DNA from: Bacteroides uniformis
GTDB lineage: Bacteria; Bacillota_I; Bacilli_A; RFN20; CAG-826
Direction of reading: 5' to 3'
DNA: 64,000 bases
NCBI GenBank assembly: GCA_963641445.1
Contig: CAVIBR010000007.1
Location: 2,525 to 66,524 of the forward strand
Part shown: positions 1 through 11,352 of the stretch, piece after piece
How positions within the stretch are numbered: the stretch's first letter is position 1
Layout: each line of letters begins with the position of its first letter
Notes under the pieces: model-generated
The model's database searches: none
The model's input: the letters and a program-made list of their open reading frames with translations, nothing else
Told to the model about the DNA's origin: nothing
Program-made: the position numbers and the translations under genes

Positions 1-133
1 ACTCGCCCCATTGGCGCCCGTTGTAGAAATCGTCGTCCTCCTCTATCGAGGCGACGAGGTCGGTCTTCGCCTGGTACTGCCTCCAGAATCTGTCGTGGAG
101 GAGCGCGTTCATGCTCTCGTTTCCCTTGGCCAT
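1..133 (-). CDS. phage portal protein, N-terminal fragment (truncated by window edge)
   Basis: ATG at 133-131 lies 3 nt after the upstream stop. Reads MAKGNESMNALLHDRFWRQYQAKTDLVASIEEDDDFYNGRQWGE. It sits directly after terL and has a YxGxQW-type motif like SPP1-type portals. Confidence 0.5.
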   Translation of the reverse strand, partial: MAKGNESMNALLHDRFWRQYQAKTDLVASIEEDDDFYNGRQWGE

Positions 134-136
134 CCG

Positions 137-373
137 TCAGCTCTCCTTTCTCCCTTGGTCGGGCCTGAATGGGTGGGAGGCCCTGAAGTCCCCGAAACCC
201 ATCATCCTCCTCTGCGCGTCGGCGGCTCTCTCCCTTGCCGGCGCGGTATCCGTTCTCTCTTCCTTCCTCATGCCCTCGATCTCCTTCCTGAGGGCGCTTA
301 TCTCGGAGGACTGCTCGGCCACCCTGGCCTCAAGCTCCCCCATCATCATGAGGATCCTCCTCTTGCTCACCAT
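137..373 (-). CDS. small Glu/Arg-rich coiled-coil-like phage protein (78 aa)
   Basis: Internal ATG of tracked ORF 137..598. Its ATG overlaps the terL stop (ATGGTGA), so it is translationally coupled. Confidence 0.5.
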   Translation of the reverse strand: MVSKRRILMMMGELEARVAEQSSEISALRKEIEGMRKEERTDTAPARERAADAQRRMMGFGDFRASHPFRPDQGRKES

Positions 374-2202
374 GTCATGTACCTCCTCACGACCTTCCTC
401 TCCTTCCTCAATGGGTCGAAGCCCATGCCCTTCCTGCCTTGCCTTGCGGCTTTCTCCACGGTCGCCGGGTACGCGCCCCTGACCAGGAAGAATCCGGCGT
501 ATGCCATGACGAGGTCGTCGTGCGCCCCGCCCTCGGCCATCGCCTTCTCCTTGCCGGACCTGCCGGATCTTATGTAGGAGAAGGACTCCATCTCGCATAT
601 CGTCGCGAAGTCATTGACGATCGAGCCCCCGGACTCCCTGAAGGCGACCACGAGGTCGTCTATCATCCTCTGGCGGTTCGACTGCTTGGTCTTGTACCCG
701 TAGCTCGCCATGAGCCTGCCGGATATGGCCTCGGTGTCCCTGTCCACGTAGACGTCCCTGACGCCCAGCCTCTTCATCGTGTTCACGAAGTAGGCGGTGG
801 TGTTGGTCTCGCCGGCCACCATGACCCTGCCCGAGGCGGCATGGAACTCCTCATAGAGGCAGTATGACTGGAAGGTGGCCTCATCCGCGTCGCAGCCCCT
901 CTTGTGGAACGTGGCGCACTGGGAGCAGTCCGAGTTGTCGATGAGCTGCGTCGCCCAGCAGTCCTCCCCGCCCATCGCGGGGTCGTTGACCATCACGTAC
1001 GGGTGCCCGGCCTCCGGCTCTCTGTAGATCGAGACCGCCCCGTTCGGGTCATCCGCCCACTCGATGCCGGAGAGCGACACCCTCCCGCCGTCTGATGAGA
1101 CGGATCTCCTGTATATGTAGTAACCCCTCCTCAATGGCTCCTTGGAGAGCAATTCGCCCTTCCTTCTCGAGACTATCGCCGAATTGAAGACGCTCGATCC
1201 GGATGAGACGAACATCTCCACCGGGTCGGAGGGGTATTCCTGCGCCATCCTGGCATCATCCTGCCCCGCTGTCTCCCATTTGGCGTGCCACCACTGCAGC
1301 TGGTCATCCGTGAGATGGTGCCTTTCTTTCATCTCCAATTCCTTCGGGGTGAGCCTGTGGCCGTCGTAGCGCATCGAGTAGGAGGGCTCCATGAACCACG
1401 GGATGAAGACCGACCTGAACATGCCCTTGCCGGACATCCCCATGTCGTACATCCTCTTCCACTCGTTGGCGCCGTTGGCCGTGGTCTCCCTGAAGATTAT
1501 CGAATCGATGTCGGTGTCCCCGACGGTGTTCTCGAGCGCCAGGCAGGTGCCCGCTATGTCGTCCCAGAAGGCGACCTCGGACTCGTGGACGTAGTCGAAG
1601 GTATTCGATCTCCCGGCGCCCTCGCCCTGGACGACCACCTTTATGGAGGAGGTGACGCCCCTCCCGTAGTCGAAGGTCAGCTCATAGGCGTTCTTGGCCT
1701 TCTTCCGGAGGTTCCTCCTGAGGTACTCCGGCGTGGTCTCATAGAGCAATTGGTATTTCTCGAAGAGCCCCGATGCGTGCCCGGCCACGTCGGCGACTAT
1801 GGCGCATCTCCTGCCGGGGATGAATGCGGTCAATGGGAAGAAGACCCCGGCCACGAAGGTCGAGCCGCCCATCTGGCGCGACTTGCCGTCGTTTATCCTT
1901 ATGGGCTTCCCCTCCCTCCTCATCAGGCACATCTCTTTGTAGAGCGCTATCTGCGAGGCGTTGAGCTCGAATGGGGCCACGCCCCCTCTCCCATCGCCCC
2001 TCTTGGTGGAGATCCTCTCATGGGCCTCCATGTAGCGCCACAATGGGTACCATCTCTGCTCCCCCGATTTGGGGTCTTTGAACCAGAATCCCATCTCGCG
2101 GTCGAACCCCGGGAGCTCCTCATCAGCCCTCGTATGCCTCATCAAGGGAGACCCATCGTCCTTGAGGATGGGATTGCCCATGGAATCCAAGACCGGTATC
2201 AT
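367..2202 (-). CDS. terL: terminase large subunit
   Basis: 611 aa. Has an ATPase P-loop-like GKSRQMGGST and a C-terminal nuclease-like GGAHDDLVMA. ATGA overlap with the upstream ORF, and a portal follows. Confidence 0.9.
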   Translation of the reverse strand: MIPVLDSMGNPILKDDGSPLMRHTRADEELPGFDREMGFWFKDPKSGEQRWYPLWRYMEAHERISTKRGDGRGGVAPFELNASQIALYKEMCLMRREGKPIRINDGKSRQMGGSTFVAGVFFPLTAFIPGRRCAIVADVAGHASGLFEKYQLLYETTPEYLRRNLRKKAKNAYELTFDYGRGVTSSIKVVVQGEGAGRSNTFDYVHESEVAFWDDIAGTCLALENTVGDTDIDSIIFRETTANGANEWKRMYDMGMSGKGMFRSVFIPWFMEPSYSMRYDGHRLTPKELEMKERHHLTDDQLQWWHAKWETAGQDDARMAQEYPSDPVEMFVSSGSSVFNSAIVSRRKGELLSKEPLRRGYYIYRRSVSSDGGRVSLSGIEWADDPNGAVSIYREPEAGHPYVMVNDPAMGGEDCWATQLIDNSDCSQCATFHKRGCDADEATFQSYCLYEEFHAASGRVMVAGETNTTAYFVNTMKRLGVRDVYVDRDTEAISGRLMASYGYKTKQSNRQRMIDDLVVAFRESGGSIVNDFATICEMESFSYIRSGRSGKEKAMAEGGAHDDLVMAYAGFFLVRGAYPATVEKAARQGRKGMGFDPLRKERKVVRRYMTW

Positions 2203-2543
2203 CGGCCATCCCCTTCCGGCGGCGCGAAGAAATCCAATGGCTCCCCGCCGGAGGTGACGTCGACCTGCTGCCTGGCCTCTCCCAATGCCGATGAGAGCTC
2301 CTTGAGGGACATCCTCTCCGGGTGCTCGAGCCTGTCACCGACCCACGCCTCTATGAGGGCGTCGCCCAAAGACGAGCCATCCTCCCCCTTCGAGGCCAAT
2401 GCGCCCGACAGGGCCTCCCTGAGGCTGAACGCCCCATCGCCCTTGTCCCCCCTCTTGGAGAGGTAGTATTCCTTCCAGTCCTTCCTCATGCTGGCTATAA
2501 TATAACGCCTCAAAAGCCCTTTTTCAAGCGGACTGCGTTGCAT
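2199..2543 (-). CDS. putative terminase small subunit (by position only)
   Basis: 114-aa ORF whose stop overlaps the terL ATG. No motif recognised. An alternative ATG at 2489 is preceded by TTGAAA-17-TATATT. Confidence 0.4.
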   Translation of the reverse strand: MQRSPLEKGLLRRYIIASMRKDWKEYYLSKRGDKGDGAFSLREALSGALASKGEDGSSLGDALIEAWVGDRLEHPERMSLKELSSALGEARQQVDVTSGGEPLDFFAPPEGDGR

Positions 2544-2710
2544 TGCGCAACATTCGCGTCATAATATGCCAGCCAATCCGGGGCGGGTGCCCTTTTCTTT
2601 TGGGAAGGTAAGGGAAGATGAGGGAATGCCTGAAATCATGGGGCGGATTTAGGGGAGGGGCATTGTTTGATGGAAGACCACCCCGCCTGTTCCCCGTGTG
2701 GGGGGTGGGG

Positions 2711-2768
2711 TCCCTCTCCCTCCTTCCTTCTCTTTCCTTCTCCTTTGCCTTCCTTCTTCCTTCCCTTG
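2711..2768. repeat. 58-nt polypyrimidine (CT) tract with a single purine
   Basis: tccctctccctccttccttctctttccttctcctttgccttccttcttccttccctt read directly. ORFs across it translate to low-complexity S/F/L/P strings. Confidence 0.8.
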
Positions 2769-2877
2769 GCGGCGTTTTGGGGCTTCATGCCCTCTTTTTT
2801 TGCTCAAAAACTGCACAATCAAAAGAAAAATAAAGGTTTCATCGTGTAAAGTTCGTTTTTTGGAAAATGAACGATAT

Positions 2878-2910
2878 AAAAAAGCATCTCAGATATTGGC
2901 ATCCGATGCC
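2878..2910 (-). terminator. possible intrinsic terminator (minus strand)
   Basis: On the minus strand reads GCATC-N16-GATGC followed by TTTTTT. The stem is short and the loop long. Confidence 0.3.
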
Positions 2911-2971
2911 TTCATGCGCACGCATCCGCGTTTGTAGACTAATTCAAGATAGTAAATAAATAATATTTTCA

Positions 2972-3017
2972 GTTAACTAGCCATTAATTAACTTACTTTG
3001 TTAACTAATTATTAACT
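2972..3017. repeat. four phased (G/A)TTAACT(A) repeats in an AT-rich spacer
   Basis: TTAACT at 2973, 2988, 3001 and 3012 (11-15 bp spacing), upstream of the packaging genes. Confidence 0.6.
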
Positions 3018-3324
3018 GAGTCTTACTTTTTGACTTAGTTTAGGTATTTTAGTTTTTCGTTTTCTGGCGGCTTCTCTTTTTCTCTCTGGGGTGTGTTCTC
3101 ATGCGCGACTAGCAAATTTAAAGAGAGTGAATAAGTATACCCAAGGAAGTATATATATTTATATCCGCATTCGCTCATATTGCCACATCATCAGTATTTA
3201 ATTTTATGGGCATTGCCATTTAAAAAACTTTTTTTCTTTCTCTTGCTTTGAAATTATCTTAAAAATATTTCTTCGATGTAATCTAGGTTTTTTATGTTTT
3301 TTGAAAGAATTTAATTATTTTCTA

Positions 3325-3354
3325 TTGCGTATGGGGTCAGTATGTGTTTATAAT
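3325..3354 (+). promoter_or_regulatory. sigma-A-like promoter of cassette A
   Basis: TTGCGT (3325-3330), 18-nt spacer, TATAAT (3349-3354), in an AT-rich context. Confidence 0.55.
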
Positions 3355-3393
3355 AATGTCGTTCCCAATGAGAGGAAGAAAGGAGGCGAGCCC

Positions 3394-3447
3394 GTGAAAA
3401 TCTTATTGAGAACGCCCCGCGTAAGTTGCAGGCCTGATTATGGATGA
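3394..3447 (+). CDS. leader mini-ORF A (17 codons, GTG start)
   Basis: AAAGGAGG lies 7 nt upstream of the GTG. Its TGA stop (3445-3447) overlaps the ATG at 3440 of the next ORF (ATGGATGA). Confidence 0.35.
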   Translation: MKILLRTPRVSCRPDYG

Positions 3448-3532
3448 AAAGAAAATCAAGCGCCTAATAATGCTACTCACAATAGCAAAGCTGGCGCTTG
3501 AGATCCTAATTCACATAATTAGTTTAGCCTAA
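3440..3532 (+). CDS. 30-aa amphipathic/hydrophobic peptide A (candidate type I toxin)
   Basis: MDEKKIKRLIMLLTIAKLALEILIHIISLA. No SD of its own, so it appears coupled to the leader. A paralog at 4582-4677 shares 11/21 residues, 7 of them through synonymous codon changes. Confidence 0.5.
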   Translation: MDEKKIKRLIMLLTIAKLALEILIHIISLA

Positions 3533-3549
3533 AAGGCGGGCGGCGTCAA
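3521..3549 (-). promoter_or_regulatory. antisense promoter A
   Basis: The minus strand reads TTGACG (3549-3544), 17 nt, TAAACT (3526-3521). It points back across peptide ORF A. The same boxes and spacing recur in cassette B. Confidence 0.5.
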
Positions 3550-3583
3550 GCGGGGCGGCGCCGTTTCGCTCAACGGGTAAAGG

Positions 3584-3787
3584 ATGCCAAGGAAGAGCAA
3601 GGAGCAGGAAAGGAAAGAGAGACAATACCAGAGGCAAAACGGATGGGCAAAGGAAAACACGAAGAAATACGCTGTTAGACTATCATACATCCAAGACGCC
3701 GAAATGATAGAGTTTCTCGAAAAGAAAGAAAGCAAAGCCGGCTACATTAAAGAATTGATAAAAAAAGACATGGAAGCCAGCAAATAA
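3584..3787 (+). CDS. ribbon-helix-helix-like small DNA-binding protein A (67 aa)
   Basis: Basic N-terminus, then a beta-strand/helix/helix pattern (KKYAVRLSY / DAEMIEFLEKK / KAGYIKELIKKDM). SD AAAGG precedes the ATG. Confidence 0.6.
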   Translation: MPRKSKEQERKERQYQRQNGWAKENTKKYAVRLSYIQDAEMIEFLEKKESKAGYIKELIKKDMEASK

Positions 3788-3939
3788 GAAAACTACCGCA
3801 GACGGTCGCACCCGCAAAGTAAAACCGCACACGGTAGCCAAACGGTGGCAAGCCTGAGCCAGCCCCGGCCAGATTGTACCACCCTAAAAGGAAAGGGGCA
3901 ACAAGAAGCCCCATAGGGGCATGAAAGGACAATCTGAAA

Positions 3940-4416
3940 ATGCTTAGAACGAACTCAAAACAAGTCAACAACAAGATCCGCGAGGCCTTCGCATCCGATG
4001 CGATGGGCTGCGCCGCCGAGTGGGCCGAATGGCTCCAGGAAAGCCCGGAGGATCTCGAGAAGGCCAAGGAGCAAGGGAGATGGGGGACGCTTGAGGCGCT
4101 CGCCATTCTCGCAGGCGTCGAAGGCTCCGAGAAGGGCATAGAGGCCCAAAAGCTCGCCGCCGATTTCATAAAAGAGACGGCAATGAAAGAGAAAGCCTAT
4201 GACGGCGCGCATTGGTCCCCTTCGCTCTTCGCCGAGTGGTGCCAGGGTTTGCCGGGCGCCCTCGACACTGCAAAATGGTACTGCCATAGCGCGATAGATT
4301 ACTGCAAAAGCCTTTTGGAGGAGACGGACGAGGAGGCCTCCAGATACTCCGAGACCGACGCCGAGGAATTGATCACAAATTTATTCTTCAGGGAGATAAA
4401 CAAATTAGCCAGATGA
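3940..4416 (+). CDS. hypothetical acidic protein (158 aa), cargo of cassette A
   Basis: ATG preceded by AAAGGA. Non-repetitive, protein-like composition. No family recognised. Confidence 0.6.
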   Translation: MLRTNSKQVNNKIREAFASDAMGCAAEWAEWLQESPEDLEKAKEQGRWGTLEALAILAGVEGSEKGIEAQKLAADFIKETAMKEKAYDGAHWSPSLFAEWCQGLPGALDTAKWYCHSAIDYCKSLLEETDEEASRYSETDAEELITNLFFREINKLAR

Positions 4417-4442
4417 AAAAACAAGGGGGATAAATCCCCCTT
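4414..4442 (-). terminator. intrinsic terminator oriented for the minus strand
   Basis: 8-bp stem AAGGGGGA/TCCCCCTT with a 4-nt loop. The U-tract (GTTTTTTCA) is present only on the minus strand. Confidence 0.6.
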
Positions 4443-4464
4443 CAAAAGAAAAACAAAATAATCG

Positions 4465-4493
4465 TTGCATAGTAAGCCACTACATTATACAAT
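4465..4493 (+). promoter_or_regulatory. sigma-A-like promoter of cassette B
   Basis: TTGCAT (4465-4470), 17-nt spacer, TACAAT (4488-4493). Confidence 0.55.
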
Positions 4494-4522
4494 GATGCTG
4501 CGAAAAGGAGGGAAAAACCCGA

Positions 4523-4585
4523 ATGATCGCAAGCCGAGGGGCTGACGCACCCAAGGCGCAAAGGGCCGGAGGGATACCCCCATAA
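4523..4585 (+). CDS. leader mini-ORF B (20 codons)
   Basis: AAAAGGAGGG upstream. The TAA stop (4583-4585) overlaps the aligned first codon of peptide B. Its amino acids are unrelated to leader A. Confidence 0.3.
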   Translation: MIASRGADAPKAQRAGGIPP

Positions 4586-4677
4586 GGAAGCCGAAAAAGA
4601 AAACTCTAGAGGCCTTAATAATCGTTCTGACGATAATTAAATTGCTTCTAGAGATCTTCGAAGCTCTTATAGTCTAA
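4582..4677 (+). CDS. peptide B, paralog of peptide A, without a canonical start (aligned start codon is ATA)
   Basis: IRKPKKKTLEALIIVLTIIKLLLEIFEALIV. The frame is open only from 4546 and has no ATG/GTG/TTG. Either a start-inactivated copy or coupled non-AUG reinitiation. Confidence 0.35.
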   Translation: MRKPKKKTLEALIIVLTIIKLLLEIFEALIV

Positions 4678-4699
4678 CCGATTAGGCCCGAGGCGTCAA
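4671..4699 (-). promoter_or_regulatory. antisense promoter B
   Basis: The minus strand reads TTGACG (4699-4694), 17 nt, TAGACT (4676-4671). The spacer sequence differs from A but the length and boxes are conserved. Confidence 0.5.
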
Positions 4700-4797
4700 G
4701 GGGGCGCGAAGCCCCGCCCATAAGGGCAAGGAGGAACCAAAAGACGAAAGACAAGGCGAAAGAGAGGGCGAGGGCCAAGCGCTGGAAGGATAGGAAC

Positions 4798-4935
4798 ATG
4801 ATAAAAATATCCGTGAATCTCAACATAGGGACCAACGCGAGGGATCAAGCCATAGCGGAATGGCTGGAGAGCCAGCCCAGCAAATCCGAGGCGCTCAAGG
4901 ACGCCGCCTACAAGGCACTATCCGAGGAGAAATAA
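4798..4935 (+). CDS. ribbon-helix-helix-like protein B (45 aa from first ATG; homologous frame open from 4678)
   Basis: MIKISVNLN...AIAEWLESQ...EALKDAAYKAL. The upstream in-frame KERARAKRWKDRN matches the N-terminus of RHH A but has no canonical start after SD AAGGAGG (4728-4734). Confidence 0.45.
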   Translation: MIKISVNLNIGTNARDQAIAEWLESQPSKSEALKDAAYKALSEEK

Positions 4936-5059
4936 GAAAAGCGCACCGGTTAAATACCACTCTAAGCGGTGCGCTCACAGGTTGCAAGGAGGCCAAAGCC
5001 CCGAAGCCCCCACATTGTAACCCTAAAAAGCCAGGAGGGGCAACAAAGGAGTTACAGAA

Positions 5060-5350
5060 ATGAGAGAATTAATCATCAAAGACCTTTCCGGGATATTCGG
5101 AAGCTTCAAAGCGGAGGACGTCGCAAAAGCGGTCATAGGCCGCATCGATGAGACCCATATAGCGGAGGGCGAGAGCCTCGAGGACGCCATCAGGGAGGCG
5201 CTAGACGCCGAGATGATATACGACGATGACAAATGGGCGGTGATAGCCAACTACAGCGACCCGGACAGCCCACTATCCTACGCCGAGGCGGAAGAGCTGT
5301 TCTTCGATGACCTCCTCCAATGCGTCGAGGCCCAGGAGATGGGCGACTAG
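5060..5350 (+). CDS. strongly acidic hypothetical protein (96 aa)
   Basis: SD AAAGGAG then ATG. 26 D/E against 7 K/R, counted by eye. Confidence 0.6.
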   Translation: MRELIIKDLSGIFGSFKAEDVAKAVIGRIDETHIAEGESLEDAIREALDAEMIYDDDKWAVIANYSDPDSPLSYAEAEELFFDDLLQCVEAQEMGD

Positions 5351-5359
5351 GGGGACGGC

Positions 5360-5647
5360 ATGATGAAGACCTTAGGGATGAATTACAAGGCCAAGACGGG
5401 GGCGGTCGTCGCCCTCACCCTGGAAGGGGAGGACATAACCGCATTGCACGAGGCGGCATCGGCGATAAGGGCGAAAAAAGTCAGGCTCTACACCGACCCG
5501 GTGGCCGACGAGACCTACCTATGGGGGCGCACGGAATCGGGCATCCGCTTCTCGAGCGAGAATTGCCCGCTCTCCATAACCTGGGGGGTGGCGGAAGGCG
5601 AGGAGAAACCCATCAGGATAGAGGGGCGCATCAGGGTCGGGGGTTAG
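5360..5647 (+). CDS. hypothetical protein (95 aa)
   Basis: Lies 9 nt after the previous stop with a GGGGGA SD-like sequence. Protein-like composition, unlike the Gly/Arg-rich overlapping frame 5320..5691. Confidence 0.55.
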   Translation: MMKTLGMNYKAKTGAVVALTLEGEDITALHEAASAIRAKKVRLYTDPVADETYLWGRTESGIRFSSENCPLSITWGVAEGEEKPIRIEGRIRVGG

Positions 5648-5695
5648 GCGATAGGCCACTCACGATTGAAGGGGCAATCAAGATAGCATAAAAAT

Positions 5696-5726
5696 AAGCC
5701 ATAATAAAATATTATGGCTTTTATTT
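5696..5726 (+). terminator. intrinsic terminator after cassette B
   Basis: 10-bp stem AAGCCATAAT/ATTATGGCTT, 5-nt loop, TTATTT tail. The upstream A-run may make it bidirectional. Confidence 0.7.
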
Positions 5727-5729
5727 CGC

Positions 5730-5758
5730 TTGCATTTTATCGTGCATTGCACTACATT
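5730..5758 (+). promoter_or_regulatory. promoter with operator palindrome of the toxin-antitoxin pair
   Basis: TTGCAT-17-TACATT. The perfect inverted repeat GTGCA-T-TGCAC (5742-5752) lies in the spacer. Confidence 0.5.
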
Positions 5759-5786
5759 AAAGGTGCCATAGCAAGGAGGCAAAAGA

Positions 5787-6008
5787 ATGAACGTGACAAT
5801 AAGGATGAGCGACGGGGAAAGGAAGATAGCCGACTCATACGCCAGATGCGAGGGGATGAGCCTCTCGGAGGCGATAAAGAGGGTTTTCTTCGAGGCCGTC
5901 GAGGAGGAATACGACCTAGCCGAGGCGAAAGCCGTCTCCGAGAGGATCGCCAGCGGGGAGGAGAAAACCTATTCGCTCGATGAGGCGGAGAAGATGCTGG
6001 GATTATGA
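5787..6008 (+). CDS. RHH-type antitoxin (RelB/CopG-like)
   Basis: 73 aa. SD AAGGAGG. The N-terminal beta-strand VTIRMSD plus helices fit an RHH fold. ATGA overlap with the toxin gene. Confidence 0.7.
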   Translation: MNVTIRMSDGERKIADSYARCEGMSLSEAIKRVFFEAVEEEYDLAEAKAVSERIASGEEKTYSLDEAEKMLGL

Positions 6009-6280
6009 CCGGGAAGGAATACCACCCGAGATATTCGGAAAGCGCAATCAGGCAATTGAGGAAGATGGACCGCCAGACGGCGCTTCTGATAACGAGATGG
6101 GTAAGGAAGAACCTTGACGGCATAGCGGACCCAAGGCGGATTGGGAAACCCTTGAAAGGAGGGCTCAACCTCTACTGGCGCTATCGCGTCGGGGACTATA
6201 GGATCCTCGCTGAGATAGTCGACGCCGAGTTCGTGATAGACGTCGTGAAAATCAGCCATAGGAGGGACGTATATGAATAG
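6005..6280 (+). CDS. relE: RelE/ParE-family type II toxin
   Basis: 91 aa. ...LKGGLNLYWRYRVGDYRILAEIVDAEFVIDVVKISHRRDVY is the typical RelE/StbE C-terminal pattern. Confidence 0.8.
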   Translation: MTGKEYHPRYSESAIRQLRKMDRQTALLITRWVRKNLDGIADPRRIGKPLKGGLNLYWRYRVGDYRILAEIVDAEFVIDVVKISHRRDVYE

Positions 6281-6306
6281 AAACCGGAAAGAATTCCGGT
6301 TTTTTC
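6281..6306. terminator. bidirectional terminator between convergent genes
   Basis: AAACCGGAA-AGAA-TTCCGGTTT followed by TTTT, and flanked by an A-run on the other side. Confidence 0.7.
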
Positions 6307-6708
6307 TTATACCATGAGCCTCCGCCTGACGTCGGCAACGAGAGAGCGGACGCGCGAGGGCCTCTCGCCTATCTTGGCCGCTATGATCGCGTAATCGAGG
6401 TCGGAGAGGGCGGCGAGGGATGCGGCGCGGTTCTGCCACGACCCTTTGGGGTACCATGAGTCCAAGACCCTCTGAAGGGCTTTTTTTGTGACTTTTAAGT
6501 CACTCTCAAGCCCCTCTTTCCTGGTCTCCAGCCTCTCGGCCGCGATGACCGCCTGGAGGGCCTTAAGCTCGCCCGCGCTCCCAGGCTTGGCGGACGCGTG
6601 GCGGTCGATGATGGCTTTCTGCGCCCTGAGCCCCGCTCTCACCGCCTCCAGCTCGAGCTCCATCGAGCGGATGGAATCGACCACGCGGACGGCGCTTGGC
6701 TCACTCAT
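6307..6708 (-). CDS. hypothetical protein with C-terminal HTH-like segment; possible late-gene regulator (position only)
   Basis: 133 aa. The C-terminus LSDLDYAIIAAKIGERPSRVRSLVADVRRRL resembles a sigma region-4-type HTH. It is the last gene before the packaging region. Confidence 0.5.
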   Translation of the reverse strand: MSEPSAVRVVDSIRSMELELEAVRAGLRAQKAIIDRHASAKPGSAGELKALQAVIAAERLETRKEGLESDLKVTKKALQRVLDSWYPKGSWQNRAASLAALSDLDYAIIAAKIGERPSRVRSLVADVRRRLMV

Positions 6709-7027
6709 AGTCGCCCGCCCTCCTCCTCGCGCCGTTTCTCAGGAAGCGCACGTCATAGGCCACGGCGGAGGTTATCGGCATTTTGCCCTCCTCGCGCATC
6801 GGCGTGCCCCTGAGCATCCCCGACACGGCGACGGGTTTGCCCTTGAGGCTCGCGAAGTCGCCAAGCCTGCTCAAAGGGTTCAGGAAGATGGCGAAGCGGA
6901 ACGGCGCGGCGTCCCCGTTGGGCACCTCGAGGATGAAGCACTGCTGCGGGGCCTTGGAGTTCGGGAATGGCGTGTAGAGGTCGGTGAGCGCGACGCCCAC
7001 GAGGTGGAACCCGTTGAGCGCGCCCAT
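6701..7027 (-). CDS. hypothetical phage protein (108 aa)
   Basis: ATG at 7027 shares one nt with the upstream stop (TGATG). The N-terminal part of tracked ORF 6701..7159 was trimmed. Confidence 0.5.
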   Translation of the reverse strand: MGALNGFHLVGVALTDLYTPFPNSKAPQQCFILEVPNGDAAPFRFAIFLNPLSRLGDFASLKGKPVAVSGMLRGTPMREEGKMPITSAVAYDVRFLRNGARRRAGDYE

Positions 7028-7206
7028 CAGCCCCCCCAGAGCTCGCTGAGCATCACGAAGCCCAATGCCGCCACCGGGATGCCGGGGATGATGAGGATCA
7101 GCCCCCAGCCCCTCCAGAGTACCGGCCCGACTATCAGCAGGAACGCGGCGGCCAGGCACACCGCGGCGGTCGCAAGCTGGAACAGCAGCACTTTTATGAA
7201 ATCCAT
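7027..7206 (-). CDS. small membrane protein, two predicted TM helices (59 aa)
   Basis: MDFIKVLLFQLATAAVCLAAAFLLIVGP...LILIIPGIPVAALGFVMLSELWGG. AAGGAG lies 8 nt upstream of the ATG at 7206. Confidence 0.55.
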   Translation of the reverse strand: MDFIKVLLFQLATAAVCLAAAFLLIVGPVLWRGWGLILIIPGIPVAALGFVMLSELWGG

Positions 7207-7227
7207 GTCTTTCGCTCCTTTGCCGTG

Positions 7228-7257
7228 ATTATGCCACGGGGCGATGCGGCAAGTCAA
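7228..7257 (-). promoter_or_regulatory. sigma-A-like promoter (minus strand)
   Basis: TTGACT (7257-7252), 18 nt, CATAAT (7233-7228), just upstream of the small membrane protein gene. Confidence 0.45.
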
Positions 7258-7363
7258 ACGGCCGTTGGCACGCACGAGCCACGCAAAGGGCTCAAATTTC
7301 AACGTTCGCAACTCGTTTGATAAATTACTCATTCTCATTCCGTTTTTTGAAATCCGTGGCATT

Positions 7364-7600
7364 CTAGCGCTTCCTCGTGCGCCTCCCGGCGATGAAGGAC
7401 ACCCCCGACCTTGTGCATCCGCCGCATCTGATAAGCCTGTAGACAGTGTCGCGGCTCACCCCGAAAGCCCTTGCCGCCTCATCCGCCGTGCGCCACCTGA
7501 TTCGCTCCTCCGCGCCGTCCTGGAGCGTGCGCACCGAGGTGACCGACATGTGGATGGTGGCCCTCTTGACCCCCATGGCCTCCCAATCGAGCATGCCCAT
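7364..7600 (-). CDS. HTH DNA-binding protein (excisionase/MerR-like HTH)
   Basis: RTADEAARAFGVSRDTVYRLIRCG is a helix-turn-helix. ATG at 7600 overlaps the RusA stop. Confidence 0.55.
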   Translation of the reverse strand: MGMLDWEAMGVKRATIHMSVTSVRTLQDGAEERIRWRTADEAARAFGVSRDTVYRLIRCGGCTRSGVSFIAGRRTRKR

Positions 7601-8043
7601 CAATCATCCCCCTCGCCGAAGAGCATGAGCTCGACCCACACGCTGGGCTCCTCGTCGTAGATCTTAGTGACCGTGAGGCTCCAGACGAGCGCGTCATCCC
7701 TGTAGGCGATGCCGTTCAGCGCGTCCATGACCGATTTCGCGGCGTTGTCTATGTCGGGCTTCCTCGATGGCACCAGCCCCCCTGAGAGCATCATGGCGCG
7801 CTTTTTCTTGCTGATGCCTTTGGGCGGGGCCATCCTGATGGTTATCCTCATCGCCACCGGGCCGTCCATCGGCTCCGCGTCCGGGTGCTCCCCCTCATAG
7901 CACAGCCTCACCCAGTTCTCGTACTCGACCTGCTTCGCCGGCGTGTATACCCTCGCATGCCCCGCGAAGGCCGATGCCTTTGGGCGCATCTTGCCCCTTG
8001 CCTCGCCCGGCACCTTGAACATCCTTCTCTTGATTATCGTCAT
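7600..8043 (-). CDS. rusA: RusA-family Holliday junction resolvase
   Basis: SRKPDIDNAAKSVMDALNGIAYRDDALV is the RusA signature. ATG at 8043 (the tracked start at 8046 is TTG). Confidence 0.85.
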   Translation of the reverse strand: MTIIKRRMFKVPGEARGKMRPKASAFAGHARVYTPAKQVEYENWVRLCYEGEHPDAEPMDGPVAMRITIRMAPPKGISKKKRAMMLSGGLVPSRKPDIDNAAKSVMDALNGIAYRDDALVWSLTVTKIYDEEPSVWVELMLFGEGDD

Positions 8044-8240
8044 CAATCATCCTCCCTGTCGTCTATCCTGATCACCACCGTGCCCCGCCCGCCGCTTCTC
8101 CTCAGCCACGTCGGGGAGCAGTACCAGCGGATGAGCCTCGCGTCCATCCCCGTCCTCTCGCGGAGCTCCTCTGCCGTGCCAAGGTCCACGAACTCATCGC
8201 CCCTGTACACGGCGTAGACCGCCCGGCATTTGCCTGCCAT
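8043..8240 (-). CDS. hypothetical phage protein (65 aa)
   Basis: Start and stop overlap the neighbouring genes in the same operon. Confidence 0.5.
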   Translation of the reverse strand: MAGKCRAVYAVYRGDEFVDLGTAEELRERTGMDARLIRWYCSPTWLRRSGGRGTVVIRIDDREDD

Positions 8241-8584
8241 CAGGCCTCGTTCCCCCTTGGCCCATCGTCATCGTCATCGACCATGCAGGATAGGGCATAG
8301 GCCACGCCCTCGTCCATCTCGGCCATCTCGCTCTCCGTCATCGCCCTCGAGTCGAATGAGCCCAGCGAGGCGAGCTTGTCTATGAGCCTCGTCTCCGCCA
8401 GGCCGAGTACGGCGAGCTGCGCGTCCGCCGCCCTTTTGCGCGCCATGTATCTCCCTGGGTCCCTCTTCCTGTCCTTGAGCATGCCGTCGATGGCCGCGCT
8501 GAGGACCGCGAACACGTAGGCGATCTCCGCCTTGGTCATGCTGATCCTGTATTCCTTGGCCTTCCTGGCCTCCCTGTCGCTCAT
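8240..8584 (-). CDS. hypothetical phage protein (114 aa)
   Basis: Internal ATG of tracked ORF 8240..8824. ATGA overlap with 8581..8787. Acidic C-terminus. Confidence 0.5.
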   Translation of the reverse strand: MSDREARKAKEYRISMTKAEIAYVFAVLSAAIDGMLKDRKRDPGRYMARKRAADAQLAVLGLAETRLIDKLASLGSFDSRAMTESEMAEMDEGVAYALSCMVDDDDDGPRGNEA

Positions 8585-8787
8585 CTTTCTTTGCCCTCCC
8601 TTATCTCGAACTCCATGAAGTTCCCGTTCCTGTGGTAGAACCTCATGCGTATCGTGCCGTCCTGGCAGACGCTCCTCTCTATCCTCGACCGTCTGTCGCA
8701 GATGAGCATATAGAGGGCGTCCTTGAGCTCGCCCTCGCTCACGCTCATCCCATCGCAGCCGCTGCTGCGCATCGTTATCTCTCTCAT
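8581..8787 (-). CDS. hypothetical phage protein (68 aa)
   Basis: ATGA-coupled at both ends. Confidence 0.5.
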   Translation of the reverse strand: MREITMRSSGCDGMSVSEGELKDALYMLICDRRSRIERSVCQDGTIRMRFYHRNGNFMEFEIREGKER

Positions 8788-8909
8788 CTCTTCTCCTTCC
8801 TGGCCTCCCTGAGCAAGCGCTCATAGTGCCTCTTCCTGTCCTTGAACGCCCTGTAATTGGGGGCGCCCCTCATGGCCTCATAGGCCCTCTTCACCTCATC
8901 GGCCAGCAT
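8784..8909 (-). CDS. hypothetical small basic protein (41 aa)
   Basis: MLADEVKRAYEAMRGAPNYRAFKDRKRHYERLLREARKEKR, translated by hand. The stop overlaps the next ATG. Below the ORF-track size cut-off. Confidence 0.4.
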   Translation of the reverse strand: MLADEVKRAYEAMRGAPNYRAFKDRKRHYERLLREARKEKR

Positions 8910-8927
8910 TTTCTCTCCTCAGGCCCC

Positions 8928-9185
8928 TCATTTCCCAAGCACCGATTTCATGAAGGCGTACTCGGCCTCGGTGAGGTAGGCGGTCTTGCCTCCCCTCATC
9001 GTGCGCATGACCGTCTTGGCGTACACGCTCTCGGTCAGGTTCAGCGCCATCTTCTCGGCGAGCATGTCGAATGCCTTGGCCTTTCTCGCGAGCCTGACCA
9101 GCTCCTCCGTCTTCGGGTCTTTGGCCGGCTCCTCGGCTTTCGCCTCTTCGATCGCTTTGCCTTCTTTGCTCTTCTTCGTTACCAT
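8928..9185 (-). CDS. hypothetical phage protein (85 aa)
   Basis: Clean ATG. Lys/Glu-rich N-terminus. Same strand and codon style as the operon. Confidence 0.5.
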   Translation of the reverse strand: MVTKKSKEGKAIEEAKAEEPAKDPKTEELVRLARKAKAFDMLAEKMALNLTESVYAKTVMRTMRGGKTAYLTEAEYAFMKSVLGK

Positions 9186-9242
9186 TTTTCATTCTCTCCT
9201 TCTGGCGGCCTCATAGGCCTCTTTTTACTTTCACCGACTCCA

Positions 9243-9986
9243 TCAGAACAGCGTCCCCTGCTCGCACTGCGTGCCGTCGGCGTTCCTGGTTATCTGGCTG
9301 GTCCCCTCGACCCTTGCCTGCGCTATCCTGAAGTAGCGCTCATTCAGCTCGAAGCCCACGTAATGCCTCCCAAGCGATTTCGCCGCGGCGCACGTCGTCC
9401 CGCTCCCCATGAAGGGATCCAATACGACCCCCCCCGGACGGCTTGAGTTCTCGATCAGGTTCGAGATTATCCCGAACGGCTTGATGGTCGGGTGGCCGTA
9501 TTTTCTCTTATCCGCGGAGTTTATGTCCGTCAGGTAGACCGTGCGCGCCCTCTCGTATCTCGTGTCGAGCCTCACGCCCTTCCAGAAGTAGAGGCAGTAC
9601 TCCTTGTCCTTCAGGTAATGGCTCCCCGTGAATGGGGGAGGGTTCCTCTTGCCCCACACGATGATCTCGAAGTTGCATCCCATCCCCTTGAGGAACCAGT
9701 CGAGGTAGGATGGGATCTGCTCCTTGTTGCACCAGACGTAGATGTTCGGCTTCCTCATAACCCTCGTGAGCTCGGGGAGGATCCTCATGGCGTCCACGCC
9801 CCTGTCGAGGCCCTCCTCCCTTATCTCCCTGTATGAGTTCGCCATGTTCCGGCGGTTTTTGAAGAGCCCCGTGTCGCATCCGCCGGTGCCGAACTCGTAT
9901 GGCGGGTCGGTGACTATGAGGTCCACGGAGCCGTCCGGGATACCCTTGATCAGCTCGTAGGCGTCGCCCAACATGAGCTCATCCAT
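9243..9986 (-). CDS. DNA methyltransferase, N6-adenine/N4-cytosine family (beta class), orphan
   Basis: TDPPY catalytic motif near the N-terminus and the SAM-binding motif DPFMGSGTT near the C-terminus. No restriction gene is adjacent. Confidence 0.85.
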   Translation of the reverse strand: MDELMLGDAYELIKGIPDGSVDLIVTDPPYEFGTGGCDTGLFKNRRNMANSYREIREEGLDRGVDAMRILPELTRVMRKPNIYVWCNKEQIPSYLDWFLKGMGCNFEIIVWGKRNPPPFTGSHYLKDKEYCLYFWKGVRLDTRYERARTVYLTDINSADKRKYGHPTIKPFGIISNLIENSSRPGGVVLDPFMGSGTTCAAAKSLGRHYVGFELNERYFRIAQARVEGTSQITRNADGTQCEQGTLF

Positions 9987-10479
9987 TGCCGTTCCCCCTC
10001 GCGAGGAGCTCAAGCGCAAGCTCGTGGGCCCTCTCCTTCGAGAGCTTGCTTGCGACCGTCGCATGCCCCTTGCCGTCCCATCGAATGAGGTAGTAGGCTC
10101 CTATCATCGGGTCGTCGACGTCGTCCCCCCACACCCCGTCCCTCATCATGCCATAGTCCCTCGGGTCGAGGTGCCTTTCCAGCTTGAGGCCGTCTATGGC
10201 GACCGCCTGGAAGCATCCCGCGTCGGTGGCTACCAATGAGAGCGAGTAGGACGGCTCCGGGCCCTGGTAGTCGCTCTCGTCCTCGTAGATGTTCCAGATC
10301 TCGTCCCTCCTGAGCGCCTCCACGTTCGCCTCCGCCCTCTCCCTCATCCTCGCCTTGAGCTCATCCTGCCTGGCGAACCTCTCGCGGTAGGATGCCCTGA
10401 GCGCGGCTAGGTCTTTCCTGAATGACTCCTCTATCTCGTCGCTCTCGGCTTTCATGACCGAATACTCCTTGTCTCTCAT
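9979..10479 (-). CDS. hypothetical phage protein (166 aa)
   Basis: ATG with GGGAAGAGG upstream. No family recognised. Confidence 0.55.
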   Translation of the reverse strand: MRDKEYSVMKAESDEIEESFRKDLAALRASYRERFARQDELKARMRERAEANVEALRRDEIWNIYEDESDYQGPEPSYSLSLVATDAGCFQAVAIDGLKLERHLDPRDYGMMRDGVWGDDVDDPMIGAYYLIRWDGKGHATVASKLSKERAHELALELLARGNGNG

Positions 10480-10490
10480 CCTCTTCCCTC

Positions 10491-10694
10491 CTATGAGTTG
10501 TCCTTGAGGCTCTTCCTGGCCGATTCCATGAGCCTCCTGTCGCCCGTCAGCGACGCCACGCGGATGTCCCTGTTGGCTTTCTCCCTCTTCCTTCTGCGCT
10601 CGGCCTCTATGAGCTCGCAGTACTCGTCGTACGCGTCATAGTCCCCTCTCCCCGCCCTCTTCCTGAGGGCCCTCATTCTCTCTTGGTCTATCAT
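10491..10694 (-). CDS. hypothetical phage protein (67 aa)
   Basis: ATGA overlap with the upstream gene. Arg/Glu-rich. Confidence 0.5.
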   Translation of the reverse strand: MIDQERMRALRKRAGRGDYDAYDEYCELIEAERRRKREKANRDIRVASLTGDRRLMESARKSLKDNS

Positions 10695-11347
10695 AATGAA
10701 TCGATCTCCTTGTTCAGTCTTTTGTCCTCCCCGACGTCTCTCTCGACCTCCTCAAGCGCCTTTGCGGGGTCCATGCGGGCGCCGAGGATCTTGCTCCTCC
10801 TGCATAATTCGAGCACCTTGGATGCCTTCCTCCACTCCTGCCTCGCCTCGAGCCACACGACCATCCTCTCGGTGAAGCCGTGGATCTCCTCGATGGTTAT
10901 GGCGGAGCCCCTCCACACGGCGTTCAGGTAGTGGTCCACCCTCTCTAGGCCGTAGCCGTCGGGGCTGTCATCCTCCACGCCTAGCCTATCCAGGCGCCTG
11001 AACAGGTTTTTGGAGGAGAGATACCCCTTATCCTCGATGGGCCTGCGGTCGAACCTGCCCTCCCTTATCTCAGGGGCTATCCTTTTCTCGATGAAGGCGC
11101 ATTTGTGGACGACCGATATCCTCACCCCGTCCAGCCTCTCTTTGAGAAGCGATATGTCGAAGGAGGACCTTCTCCCGGCCTCCTCCACCACCAGCCCGAT
11201 GGCGGCCTCCCTCGTCCTGCGGTCCCTGTCATAGCCGATGAACCCGGCCAAGAGCCCCTGCAAGGCCGCCACATCAATATCCATGTCATCTGGAATATCT
11301 GTGCTATCTACAATATTCGTAGTATTTAAGTTATTAATGTCGCGCAT
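10691..11347 (-). CDS. hypothetical protein downstream of the replisome organizer (possible replication accessory)
   Basis: 218 aa. No Walker motif. Function suggested by position only. Confidence 0.55.
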   Translation of the reverse strand: MRDINNLNTTNIVDSTDIPDDMDIDVAALQGLLAGFIGYDRDRRTREAAIGLVVEEAGRRSSFDISLLKERLDGVRISVVHKCAFIEKRIAPEIREGRFDRRPIEDKGYLSSKNLFRRLDRLGVEDDSPDGYGLERVDHYLNAVWRGSAITIEEIHGFTERMVVWLEARQEWRKASKVLELCRRSKILGARMDPAKALEEVERDVGEDKRLNKEIDSL

Positions 11348-11352
11348 AATGT

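What the first reader, a model, noticed from the sequence alone, without database searches (positions are those of the whole stretch)
4414..4699. Cassette B: diverged second copy with conserved peptide, conserved antisense promoter geometry, a dedicated minus-strand terminator, and no AUG on the peptide
The layout matches cassette A: TTGCAT-17-TACAAT (4465-4493), SD AAAAGGAGGG, then a 20-codon leader (4523-4585). The peptide frame reads ..KKKTLEALIIVLTIIKLLLEIFEALIV (to 4677). Against peptide A, 11 of 21 aligned residues are identical, and 7 of those use different synonymous codons (CTA/TTA, CTC/CTG, ACA/ACG, AAG/AAA, CTG/TTG, CTT/CTA, ATT/ATA). That is a signature of selection on the peptide, whereas the two leader peptides are unrelated. 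The antisense boxes TTGACG-17-TAGACT (4699-4671) sit at the same position relative to the peptide stop, with an unrelated spacer of identical length. An intrinsic terminator whose U-tract exists only on the minus strand (4414-4442) lies about 230 nt downstream of that promoter, which predicts a discrete antisense RNA. The aligned peptide start is ATA (4582), overlapping the leader's TAA (CCATAAGG). It is therefore either a start-inactivated toxin copy or termination-reinitiation at a non-AUG codon.
Basis: partly seen in the sequence, partly recalled or inferred. Interest (0 to 1): 0.75.

Follow-up and report, generated by a model that had tools for sequence, protein, structure and literature searches.

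The report
Prophage toxin–antisense cassette lacking AUG
Window 4414-4699 holds a real, conserved gene cassette built like a type I toxin-antitoxin system (a small membrane peptide opposed by an antisense RNA), from a family not yet catalogued, and in this copy the start codon has changed from ATG to the very weak ATA while the cassette stays strongly conserved.

Summary
Related loci show these features are conserved. Eight cassette variants (A, A', A'', B, B', C, C', D) come from two prophage slots, a prophage remnant and two chromosomal sites. All share four things: a 24-38 codon peptide with a basic N-terminus and a hydrophobic C-terminus; a convergent TTGAC(G/A/C)-17/18-TAnAnT box, which lies over the peptide's stop codon in seven of the eight; a hairpin inside the coding region whose stem sequence differs between variants; and usually an upstream leader reading frame that ends at the peptide's start. 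The peptide is under purifying selection. In cassette B, ATA occupies exactly the codon that is ATG in the chromosomal D variant, and ATA is kept in a diverged phage. There the ATA-to-stop block is 97% identical while the flanks are 71-90%. B is therefore not a decaying pseudogene. It is either an attenuated toxin or one kept for an RNA-level role. No Pfam, NCBIfam, PHROG, PADLOC or Rfam family matches. Best reading: a new family of type I toxin-antitoxin-like modules that uses hok/mok-style leader coupling. Toxicity and the antisense transcript are untested.

The parts
4416..4442 (-). Intrinsic terminator that works only on the minus strand: stem 4442-4423, then G and T6 at 4422-4416. It is the predicted 3' end of the antisense RNA and abuts the stop codon of the upstream 158-aa gene.
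   Evidence: Called by the scan. Equivalent minus-strand terminators were called in L001 1218-1200 and L010 601-581. One is also visible in L011. In every case the T run is on the minus strand only.
4465..4493 (+). Sense promoter TTGCAT-17-TACAAT, with a weak -35 and a good -10. Predicted transcription start is about 4500.
   Evidence: Sequence. TTGC(A/G)T plus TACAAT, TATAAT or TAAAAT is conserved in L001, L010 and L011. It was not called by the consensus scan because the -35 matches only 3 of 6.
4503..4512 (+). Strong Shine-Dalgarno sequence AAAAGGAGGG that serves the leader ORF.
   Evidence: Identical in L001 and L010.
4523..4585 (+). Leader ORF of 20 codons, MIASRGADAPKAQRAGGIPP. Its TAA stop overlaps the peptide's ATA.
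   Evidence: In L001 the leader carries a 3-nt insertion and 15 substitutions, yet keeps its frame and the CCATAAGG junction. In the leader frame pS is 0.57 and pN 0.18; the other two frames score worse.
4582..4677 (+). Toxin-like peptide ORF of 31 codons starting at ATA: a basic N-terminus (net +5) followed by a 22-residue hydrophobic C-terminus. A GGAGGG at 4568-4573 lies 8 nt upstream of the ATA.
   Evidence: The ATA aligns with ATG (M21) of the D variant P0009, and 20 of 31 residues are identical. The ORF is 96.9% identical to L001 while the flanks are 71-90%.
4604..4653 (.). Hairpin inside the coding region, present in both the sense and the antisense RNA. In the antisense RNA it is the 5'-proximal stem-loop.
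   Evidence: Every variant has a hairpin at this place but with different stem sequences. Native folds are more stable than synonymous recodings, z -2.6 to -4.1 in six of seven tested ORFs.
4671..4699 (-). Antisense (antitoxin) promoter TTGACG-17-TAGACT. The -10 box overlaps the peptide's stop codon. Predicted transcription start is about 4664.
   Evidence: Called by the scan. Homologous boxes: L001 1478-1450 and 316-287, L010 876-847 (matches 11 of 12), L012 3019-2991. Those in L002 and L004 were read from the sequence.
4417..4664 (-). Predicted antisense RNA of about 250 nt. It is fully complementary to the peptide ORF, the leader ORF, the SD and the sense promoter.
   Evidence: Inferred from the promoter and terminator positions. 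The fold energy is -78.8 kcal/mol, z -4.1. The same geometry gives about 250-265 nt in L001 and L010. No transcript data exist.
4678..4727 (+). GC-rich tail downstream of the stop codon, complementary to the leader region. It may form a 5'-3' fold-back that encloses the peptide ORF.
   Evidence: The minimum-energy fold pairs the leader with this tail. Duplex energy is -50.7 kcal/mol, z -2.8; in B' it is -56.1, z -3.6. The pairing exceeds shuffles in 5 of 7 variants. There is one compensatory change, GGGCC:GGCCC to GGGCU:AGCCC, between B and B'.
3325..3549 (+). Sister cassette A. Promoter TTGCGT-18-TATAAT (3325-3354), leader GTG 3394 to TGA 3447, peptide ATG 3440 to TAA 3532, and antisense boxes at 3549-3521 on the minus strand.
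4798..4935 (+). Small basic ORF downstream of cassette B, on the same transcript as far as can be seen. Its counterpart after cassette A is 3584-3787.
   Evidence: In L011 the cassette is deleted and the sense promoter is joined directly to this ORF. Its fold is unassigned.

Best explanation
Cassette B belongs to an uncatalogued family of modules built like type I toxin-antitoxin systems, carried by a high-GC prophage of a low-GC Firmicute and by related chromosomes.

Proposed mechanism. A weak sense promoter makes an mRNA whose strong SD drives a short leader ORF. The leader's stop codon overlaps the start of a roughly 30-codon peptide with a basic N-terminus and a hydrophobic C-terminus, so peptide translation depends on ribosomes finishing the leader. 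This is the hok/mok design. A convergent promoter, with its -10 box over the peptide's stop codon, makes an antisense RNA of about 250 nt that ends at a minus-strand-only terminator. That RNA covers the peptide ORF, the leader, the SD and the sense promoter. Its 5'-proximal hairpin, encoded inside the ORF, would nucleate pairing with the mRNA. The result would be a block on translation, duplex-triggered decay, or both, plus transcriptional interference. Pairing between the leader and the 3' tail may additionally lock the full-length mRNA shut.

What is special about B. The ancestral ATGA start/stop overlap has become ATAA by one G-to-A change. The leader keeps a stop codon, but the peptide's start becomes near-cognate AUA. 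Peptide output should therefore be very low, by reinitiation at AUA, or zero, while the RNA parts remain under constraint.

Shown here: the anatomy, its conservation, selection on the peptide, the hairpin, and the position of ATA at the ATG site. Inferred: that the antisense transcript exists, that the peptide is toxic, that translation is coupled, the fold-back, and the direction of the ATG-to-ATA change.
For: - Anatomy at the stated coordinates.
- Eight variants share the layout. Their start codons are ATG (A, A'', C in L004, C', D), GTG (A'), ATA (B, B') and ATT (C in L002).
- Antisense boxes are conserved in all eight.
- The minus-strand terminator is conserved in the B slot.
- Purifying selection on the peptide.
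- An in-ORF hairpin with different stem sequences in each variant beats synonymous recodings. Fisher-combined p is about 3e-9, treating six variant types as independent.
- The leader frame is conserved between B and B' with pN/pS 0.31, and the stop/start junction is kept across a 3-nt indel.
- The ATA-to-TAA block is 96.9% identical to L001 while the leader is 74.6% and the 3' spacer 75.5%.
- D is a stand-alone chromosomal copy between hup and cca with the same convergent promoter over its stop. The module is therefore autonomous.
- In L011 the cassette is cleanly deleted, and two near-identical remnant loci differ by an ATG/ATT change at the start codon. Both fit a costly peptide.
- Prophage-borne small hydrophobic type I toxins are well documented in Bacillus subtilis and Clostridioides difficile (PMC10730256). 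mok-coupled hok translation is established (bioRxiv 10.1101/2025.08.07.668861).
Against: - There is no expression, toxicity or RNA-RNA interaction data of any kind.
- The family is known from only about ten contigs from a few sample series, so the comparative depth is shallow.
- B and B' differ at only 3 of 96 positions (2 non-synonymous, 1 synonymous). Selection on the peptide after the ATA change cannot be measured, and a recent recombination that replaced the ORF would give the same pattern.
- In D and in C' (L010) the 'leader' is in frame with the peptide, giving ORFs of 51 and 56 aa. Leader/peptide separation is therefore not universal.
- The leader-tail complementarity does not exceed shuffles in A' or A''. 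Because the sequences are GC-rich, non-cognate leader-tail pairs also score well.
- Cassette A has no recognisable antisense terminator.
- The sense transcript appears to run on into downstream genes, which is unusual for classical type I modules.
Confidence: 0.58

Rival explanations
1. Cassette B is translationally silent. The ATA kills initiation, and the cassette is kept for an RNA-level job: the convergent promoter pair and the sense/antisense duplex tune expression of the downstream operon (small basic ORF plus cargo genes) through transcriptional interference and RNA decay. The peptide frame survives only because the RNA sequence is constrained.
For: Synonymous sites in the B ORF are almost invariant (pS 0.04), whereas the adjoining leader has pS 0.57. 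All three B/B' differences avoid the paired positions of the in-ORF hairpin. The sense promoter has no terminator before the downstream ORFs, and L011 shows the same promoter driving them directly. L011 keeps the minus-strand terminator even though the cassette is gone.
Against: High conservation covers the whole ORF from ATA to TAA, not only the hairpin (4604-4653). Just 1 difference falls in the 46 nt of the ORF outside it. The leader's stop stays on the ATA across an indel. A GGAGGG lies 8 nt upstream of the ATA. Table 11 lists ATA as a rare bacterial initiator.
Confidence: 0.25
2. This is not a toxin-antitoxin system. The peptide is a harmless small phage membrane protein, for example one involved in superinfection exclusion or in modulating lysis or membrane function, and it is simply the first gene of a moron operon. 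The antisense promoter is a lysogeny-phase regulator.
For: The peptides have a charged N-terminus and no charged C-terminal tail, unlike most Gram-positive type I toxins (PMC10730256). They lie at the head of multi-gene operons in a moron island. No toxin family matches.
Against: The D variant stands alone in core chromosomal contexts, with no phage genes and with the same convergent promoter. Start codons are repeatedly weakened (GTG, ATA, ATT) and the cassette is cleanly deleted in one locus. Leader coupling, the fold-back and the in-ORF hairpin are all typical of tightly silenced toxin mRNAs.
Confidence: 0.12
3. B is a dead copy on its way to loss: a start-codon knock-out that is now drifting.
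For: It has no canonical start codon. The related remnant L002 carries ATT where L004 has ATG. The Hok survey found that 5.3% of loci lack both an SD and a start codon (bioRxiv 10.1101/2025.08.07.668861).
Against: The ORF is intact in three assemblies and is the most conserved segment between the window and L001, at 96.9% against 71-90% for the flanks. The leader frame, the junction, the antisense boxes and the terminator are all retained.
Confidence: 0.04
4. Leader and peptide are joined by a programmed -1 ribosomal frameshift on the C run before the leader's stop (CCC CCA TAA). This would give a fusion of about 51 aa, similar to the in-frame ORFs of D and L010.
For: D (51 aa) and L010 (56 aa) encode the leader and peptide in one frame. 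In B a C5 run lies next to a stop codon.
Against: L001 has CCG CCA TAA at the same place, which does not allow re-pairing in the -1 frame. There is no canonical X XXY YYZ heptamer. Cassettes A and A' need a different shift (+1), yet have ordinary ATG and GTG starts at the junction.
Confidence: 0.02

Closest known systems
hok/sok/mok of plasmid R1 and enterobacterial chromosomes (type I TA)
   Same: A small membrane peptide whose translation depends on an overlapping upstream leader ORF (mok). There is a cis-encoded antisense RNA and a highly structured mRNA with 5'-3' fold-back. Copies that have lost a usable start are found in nature (bioRxiv 10.1101/2025.08.07.668861).
   Different: There is no sequence or Rfam/Pfam similarity. 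Here the antisense starts at the 3' end of the ORF and covers everything, whereas Sok covers only the mok translation initiation region. The host is Gram-positive. The peptide is about 30 aa and has no periplasmic domain. The leader ends at the peptide's start, whereas mok overlaps hok extensively.
Bacillus subtilis prophage type I systems txpA/RatA, bsrG/SR4 and bsrE/SR5
   Same: They are found in Firmicutes, in prophages or prophage remnants. Toxin and antitoxin genes are convergent, with the antisense promoter downstream of the toxin ORF. The toxins are hydrophobic peptides of 30-59 aa (PMC10730256, PMC3834814).
   Different: Those antisense RNAs overlap only the 3' part of the toxin mRNA, and there is no leader ORF. 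Those toxins carry a charged C-terminal tail, whereas here the charge is N-terminal. No homology was detected.
Clostridioides difficile prophage- and CRISPR-associated type I TA modules
   Same: Prophage-borne small hydrophobic toxins with cis-antisense RNAs, proposed to stabilise the element (PMC10730256).
   Different: Those toxins are 34-59 aa with a charged C-terminus, and no leader coupling has been described. No similarity was detected.
Helicobacter aapA1/IsoA1 (from my own knowledge, not checked here)
   Same: A toxin of about 30 aa. The full-length mRNA is locked by a long-distance 5'-3' interaction. Start-codon and SD mutations are common suppressors of toxicity.
   Different: It is an unrelated sequence in an Epsilonproteobacterium, with no leader ORF, and its antisense covers the 5' region.

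Membership tests
Type I toxin-antitoxin systems (functional class) | Small (<60 aa) hydrophobic, membrane-directed peptide ORF | tested here: met
   31 codons. GRAVY of the last 22 residues is 2.25 and the N-terminal net charge is +5. The ORF is under purifying selection across variants.
Type I toxin-antitoxin systems (functional class) | Gene for an antisense RNA overlapping the toxin mRNA, with its own promoter and terminator | tested here: met
   Conserved convergent promoter boxes in 8 variants and a minus-strand-only terminator. This is an in-silico result; the transcript itself has not been observed.
Type I toxin-antitoxin systems (functional class) | The peptide is toxic when expressed without the antisense RNA | not testable with these tools
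   Only indirect hints are available: weakened start codons (GTG, ATA, ATT) and a clean deletion of the cassette.
Type I toxin-antitoxin systems (functional class) | The antisense RNA represses translation or stability of the toxin mRNA | not testable with these tools
   Full complementarity and complementary hairpin loops are present, but there are no functional data.
hok/sok/mok | Peptide homologous to Hok/Gef (Pfam) and RNA matching the Rfam hok/Sok models | tested here: not met
   No Pfam hit at E<=1. No Rfam hit at the gathering threshold or at E<=10.
hok/sok/mok | Upstream overlapping leader ORF to which toxin translation is coupled | tested here: inconclusive
   The geometry is present: stop/start overlaps ATAA (B, B'), TAGTG (A') and ATGGATGA (A), and the leader frame is conserved. 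D and C' have the leader in frame. The coupling itself is untested.
hok/sok/mok | 5'-3' fold-back that keeps the full-length mRNA inert | tested here: inconclusive
   Leader-tail duplexes exceed shuffles in 5 of 7 variants (z -1.7 to -3.6), with one compensatory pair between B and B'. Specificity for the cognate partner is weak.
Fst/Ldr, TxpA/BsrG, BsrE, YonT, SprA/SprG toxin families | Sequence membership in the curated toxin or antitoxin models | tested here: not met
   No hit in Pfam, NCBIfam, PHROGs, PADLOC, PDB sequences or Rfam. An HMM search of 1.84 billion representative proteins returned only the family's own A and D peptides.

The most novel reading that the evidence does not exclude
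The AUA is not a defect but a designed, conserved start. The peptide would then be made only when a ribosome terminating on the leader's UAA reinitiates one base upstream on a near-cognate AUA. This would give an extremely low toxin output that is gated by leader translation. A single A-to-G transition (ATAA to ATGA) would arm the module, so phage populations could switch a toxin between disarmed and armed states with one nucleotide.
Probability: 0.18. Interest if true: 0.72.

Novelty: new member of a known kind. Interest (0 to 1): 0.55.

Why it matters
If confirmed, this would add a new type I toxin-antitoxin family from uncultured gut-type Firmicutes and their prophages. No curated protein or RNA model covers it, and only three of its peptides had been called as genes among about 15 billion predicted proteins. 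It combines features known from separate systems: mok-like leader coupling and mRNA fold-back, known from Gram-negative hok, together with the convergent 3' antisense layout of Bacillus prophage systems. It also offers a natural allelic series at the toxin start codon (ATG, GTG, ATT, ATA), which is a ready-made test of how much toxin translation such modules tolerate. The ATA allele is a convenient substrate for studying termination-reinitiation at non-AUG codons in bacteria. On the practical side, it shows that gene callers miss these modules, and miss them entirely when the start codon is non-canonical.

Tried and rejected
- Rfam, both at the gathering threshold on the whole window and at E<=10 on 3000-6300: nothing relevant.
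- Pfam, NCBIfam, PHROGs and PADLOC on all peptides and neighbouring proteins: no toxin family. Only ParE/DUF6290 at 5787-6280 was recognised.
- PDB sequence search: no hit.
- blastn of 3250-5100 against GenBank phages, and tblastn of the D peptide against phages and plasmids: no match.
- Word-indexed homolog search with the A and B peptides concatenated: nothing.
- Exact look-ups of window proteins: not on record.
- IMG/VR: five scans, one with the 158-aa protein and four with DNA or peptide patterns, gave zero true hits.
- Pattern GCCGAAAAAGAAAANTCTAGA: the genome collection gave one true cassette (L006) and one chance hit in alaS (L007). The JGI metagenomes gave only chance hits (L008, L009).
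- -1 frameshift fusion: rejected because the slippery context is not kept in L001.
- Reading the small basic ORFs as RHH regulators: not confirmed. Pfam was silent, and AlphaFold returned a single long helix with pTM 0.33.
- Strict column-by-column covariation of the in-ORF hairpin: not attempted, because the stem register shifts by about 2 nt between the A and B types. A synonymous-recoding test was used instead.
- Host taxonomy could not be determined with the remaining tools.
Full report
**1. The observation**

All features are at the stated positions.
- The sense boxes are TTGCAT (4465-4470), 17 nt, TACAAT (4488-4493).
- The SD AAAAGGAGGG lies at 4503-4512.
- A 20-codon leader runs from 4523 to 4585.
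- The peptide frame reads IRKPKKKTLEALIIVLTIIKLLLEIFEALIV and ends at TAA 4675-4677.
- After the in-frame stop at 4543-4545, that frame has no ATG, GTG or TTG that could open the peptide. Its first plausible codon, ATA 4582, overlaps the leader's TAA within CCATAAGG.
- The consensus scan independently called the minus-strand boxes TTGACG-17-TAGACT (4699-4671) and their counterpart in cassette A (3549-3521). It also called a minus-strand terminator, stem 4442-4423 followed by GTTTTTT. The plus strand has no T run after that stem.
- The composite stop/promoter motif occurs twice in the window and never in 100 shuffles.
- The codon count is exact: 11 of 21 residues are identical, 7 of them with different codons.

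There are two small corrections. The two 17-nt spacers share 10 of 17 bases. The sense -35 box is weak, matching only 3 of 6.

**2. Setting**

Positions 1 to about 18987 are a prophage of 55-62% GC inside a host of about 35% GC. The host has RNase P class B, so it is a Firmicute. The integrase gene is at 17704-18831, and an 18-nt copy of a tRNA 3' end lies at 18970-18987.

Cassettes A and B head two plus-strand operons in a 3-kb island (3300-6280). The island sits between minus-strand early genes and the terminase genes. Each cassette is followed by a small basic ORF, a hairpin, a second minus-strand promoter-like box and cargo genes of unknown function. A ParE/DUF6290 pair closes the island.

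**3. Relatives**

The peptides match nothing in Pfam, NCBIfam, PHROGs, PADLOC, PDB or Rfam. Homologs of the two small basic ORFs led to related contigs. A DNA pattern search and an HMM search led to two chromosomal copies.

| Variant | Locus | Start codon | Notes |
|---|---|---|---|
| A | window, L005 | ATG | |
| A' | L001 | GTG | overlaps the leader stop as TAGTG |
| A'' | L002 to L004 | ATG | has its own SD |
| B | window, L005 | ATA | |
| B' | L001 | ATA | |
| C | L004 | ATG | prophage remnant |
| C | L002 | ATT | otherwise near-identical to L004 |
| C' | L010 | ATG | sits in the B slot, in frame with the B-type leader, giving 56 aa |
| D | L006, L012 | ATG | 51-aa ORF with an internal ATG |

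D in L012 lies between hup and cca with no phage genes nearby. The module can therefore stand alone. In L011 the leader, peptide and antisense promoter have been deleted between the two AAGGAGG sequences. The sense promoter is left driving the small basic ORF.

**4. What is conserved**

(a) The convergent promoter. All eight variants have TTGAC(G/A/C), then 17-18 nt, then TAGACT, TAAACT, TATCTT, TACAAA, TACAAT, TAAATT or TATAAT. The -10 box lies over the stop codon in seven of them. In A'' it is displaced by about 55 nt. The spacers differ in sequence.

(b) The minus-strand-only terminator upstream of the sense promoter. It is present in every B-slot locus, and L006 has a bidirectional one. 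Together with the promoter it predicts an antisense RNA of about 250-265 nt. This RNA would be complementary to the peptide ORF, the leader, the SD and the sense promoter (z -4.1).

(c) The peptide. A vs B has pS 0.86 and pN 0.35. C vs C' has dN/dS 0.16, and B vs D has 0.14. Every variant has a basic N-terminus and a hydrophobic tail of about 22 residues that runs to the C-terminus.

(d) A hairpin inside the ORF. It lies at the same place in every variant, but the stems differ. In A the stem is UCAAGCGCC/GGCGCUUGA, and in B it is CUCUAGAGGC.../...GCUUCUAGAG. Native ORFs fold better than synonymous recodings of the same peptide, with z -2.6 to -4.1 in six of seven ORFs. Fisher-combined p is about 3e-9, treating six variant types as independent. 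In the antisense RNA this is the 5'-proximal stem-loop.

(e) Leader-tail complementarity. The GC-rich leader region pairs with the segment just after the stop codon. For B the duplex energy is -50.7 kcal/mol (z -2.8), and for B' it is -56.1 (z -3.6). The pairing exceeds shuffles in 5 of 7 variants, and there is one compensatory change between B and B'. This is suggestive rather than proven.

**5. The missing AUG**

The D peptide from its internal Met, MKVPKRKNLERLVIELTIIKLLLEIFKALLI, has 31 residues, the same length as B counted from its ATA. Twenty of the 31 are identical, and the ATG aligns with the ATA.

If B once had ATG, the junction would have read CCATGAGG. That is a classical ATGA start/stop overlap. 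A single G-to-A change gives ATAA, which keeps a leader stop codon but weakens the start. This step is inference.

ATA is present in three assemblies (window, L005, L001). Between the window and L001 the segment identities are as follows:

| Segment | Identity |
|---|---|
| ATA-to-TAA block | 96.9% |
| Terminator and upstream region | 70.8% |
| Leader | 74.6% |
| 3' spacer | 75.5% |
| Sense promoter | 79.3% |
| Downstream small basic ORF | 87% |
| 5' UTR and SD | 89.7% |

The conserved block begins exactly at CCATAAGG and ends at the stop codon. The adjoining leader has pS 0.57 and pN 0.18 in its own frame, and it keeps its stop on the ATA across a 3-nt indel. The B ORF itself has pS 0.04.

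B is therefore not drifting. With only three differences, the data cannot say whether the constraint acts on a peptide still made from AUA or on the RNA. A recent exact replacement of the ORF by recombination also cannot be excluded, and L010 shows that such swaps do occur.

A -1 frameshift is unlikely, because L001 has CCG CCA TAA at the junction.

Start codons in this family have been weakened repeatedly, to GTG, ATT and ATA, and one cassette has been cleanly deleted. This is what is expected if the peptide is costly to the cell.

**6. Mechanism proposed**

- The leader is translated from a strong SD.
- The peptide is translated by coupling at the overlapping stop/start, helped by a weak internal SD. 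In B this is GGAGGG, 8 nt upstream of the ATA.
- The antisense RNA pairs through the hairpin loops, and the resulting duplex would block translation or trigger decay.
- The convergent promoters lie about 200 bp apart, which adds transcriptional interference.
- A possible fold-back keeps the full-length mRNA closed.
- In B, AUA would reduce peptide output to a trace or to nothing.

**7. Comparison with known systems**

In the way it would work, the cassette is closest to hok/sok/mok, which has leader coupling and fold-back (bioRxiv 10.1101/2025.08.07.668861). It also resembles the Bacillus prophage systems bsrG/SR4 and txpA/RatA, which have a convergent 3' antisense and a prophage location (PMC10730256, PMC3834814).

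It is not a member of any of those families, because every sequence or model test was negative. It fits best as a new family within the type I class. That assignment remains provisional until the transcript and the toxicity are demonstrated.

**8. Verdict**

Novelty: a new member of a known kind. Interest is moderate, at 0.55. What stands out is the conserved non-AUG allele sitting on a one-nucleotide start/stop overlap, and the combination of regulatory devices known from Gram-negative and Gram-positive systems.

Noticed in passing
window 1-18987 versus 19000-64000: The prophage is 55-62% GC while the host chromosome is about 35% GC. That is an unusually large mismatch. The integration is real: an 18-nt copy of a tRNA 3' end (ccgatttcccgcaccaac) lies at 18970-18987 beside the integrase gene, and a remnant of the same phage sits at the same tRNA-thyA site in L002 to L004.
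   Followed up: partly
window 4940-4975; L010 about 1119-1154; L011 about 597-632: The hairpin after small basic ORF B has arms GCGCACCG/CGGTGCGC. Its 18-nt loop is the exact reverse complement in L010 and is also inverted in L011, compared with the window and L001. This suggests the palindromic element has flipped, or that template switching occurred.
   Followed up: no
window 3873-3901 and 5014-5043 (minus strand): A second conserved minus-strand promoter-like box, TTGCCC-17/18-TACAAT, lies just upstream of each cargo gene's SD. It is also present in L001, L010 and L011. It would give transcripts antisense to the small basic ORF that run into the cassette and stop at the same terminator. Its function is unknown.
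   Followed up: partly
window 4728-4797: Small basic ORF B has an in-frame basic extension, KDKAKERARAKRWKDRN. Across four loci its changes are K/R or synonymous, yet it has no ATG, GTG or TTG. A conserved ACG sits 9 nt after a strong AAGGAGG. This may be a second non-canonical start in the same module. The homologous ORF after cassette A starts with ATG or GTG.
   Followed up: partly
L011 340-450 versus window 4494-4760: The leader, peptide and antisense promoter have been precisely deleted between the two AAGGAGG sequences. The sense promoter is left driving the small basic ORF, and the minus-strand terminator is retained.
   Followed up: yes
L002 4893-5006 versus L004 169-282: Two near-identical prophage remnants differ at the start codon of cassette C: ATT in L002 and ATG in L004. 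This copy has no leader and no SD.
   Followed up: yes
L010 683-853: Mosaic replacement. The B-slot promoter, SD and first leader codons are joined to a C-type peptide and antisense spacer, giving a single 56-aa ORF. The flanks are nearly identical to the window. The exchanged unit runs from the body of the leader to the antisense -35 box.
   Followed up: partly
window 5787-6280: A DUF6290 antitoxin and ParE-family toxin pair (type II TA) closes the same moron island. That makes three toxin-like modules within 3 kb.
   Followed up: no
window 3200-3335: Cassette A has no recognisable minus-strand terminator upstream of its sense promoter. Its antisense transcript, if it is made, would run into the AT-rich region ahead of the terminase genes.
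   Followed up: no
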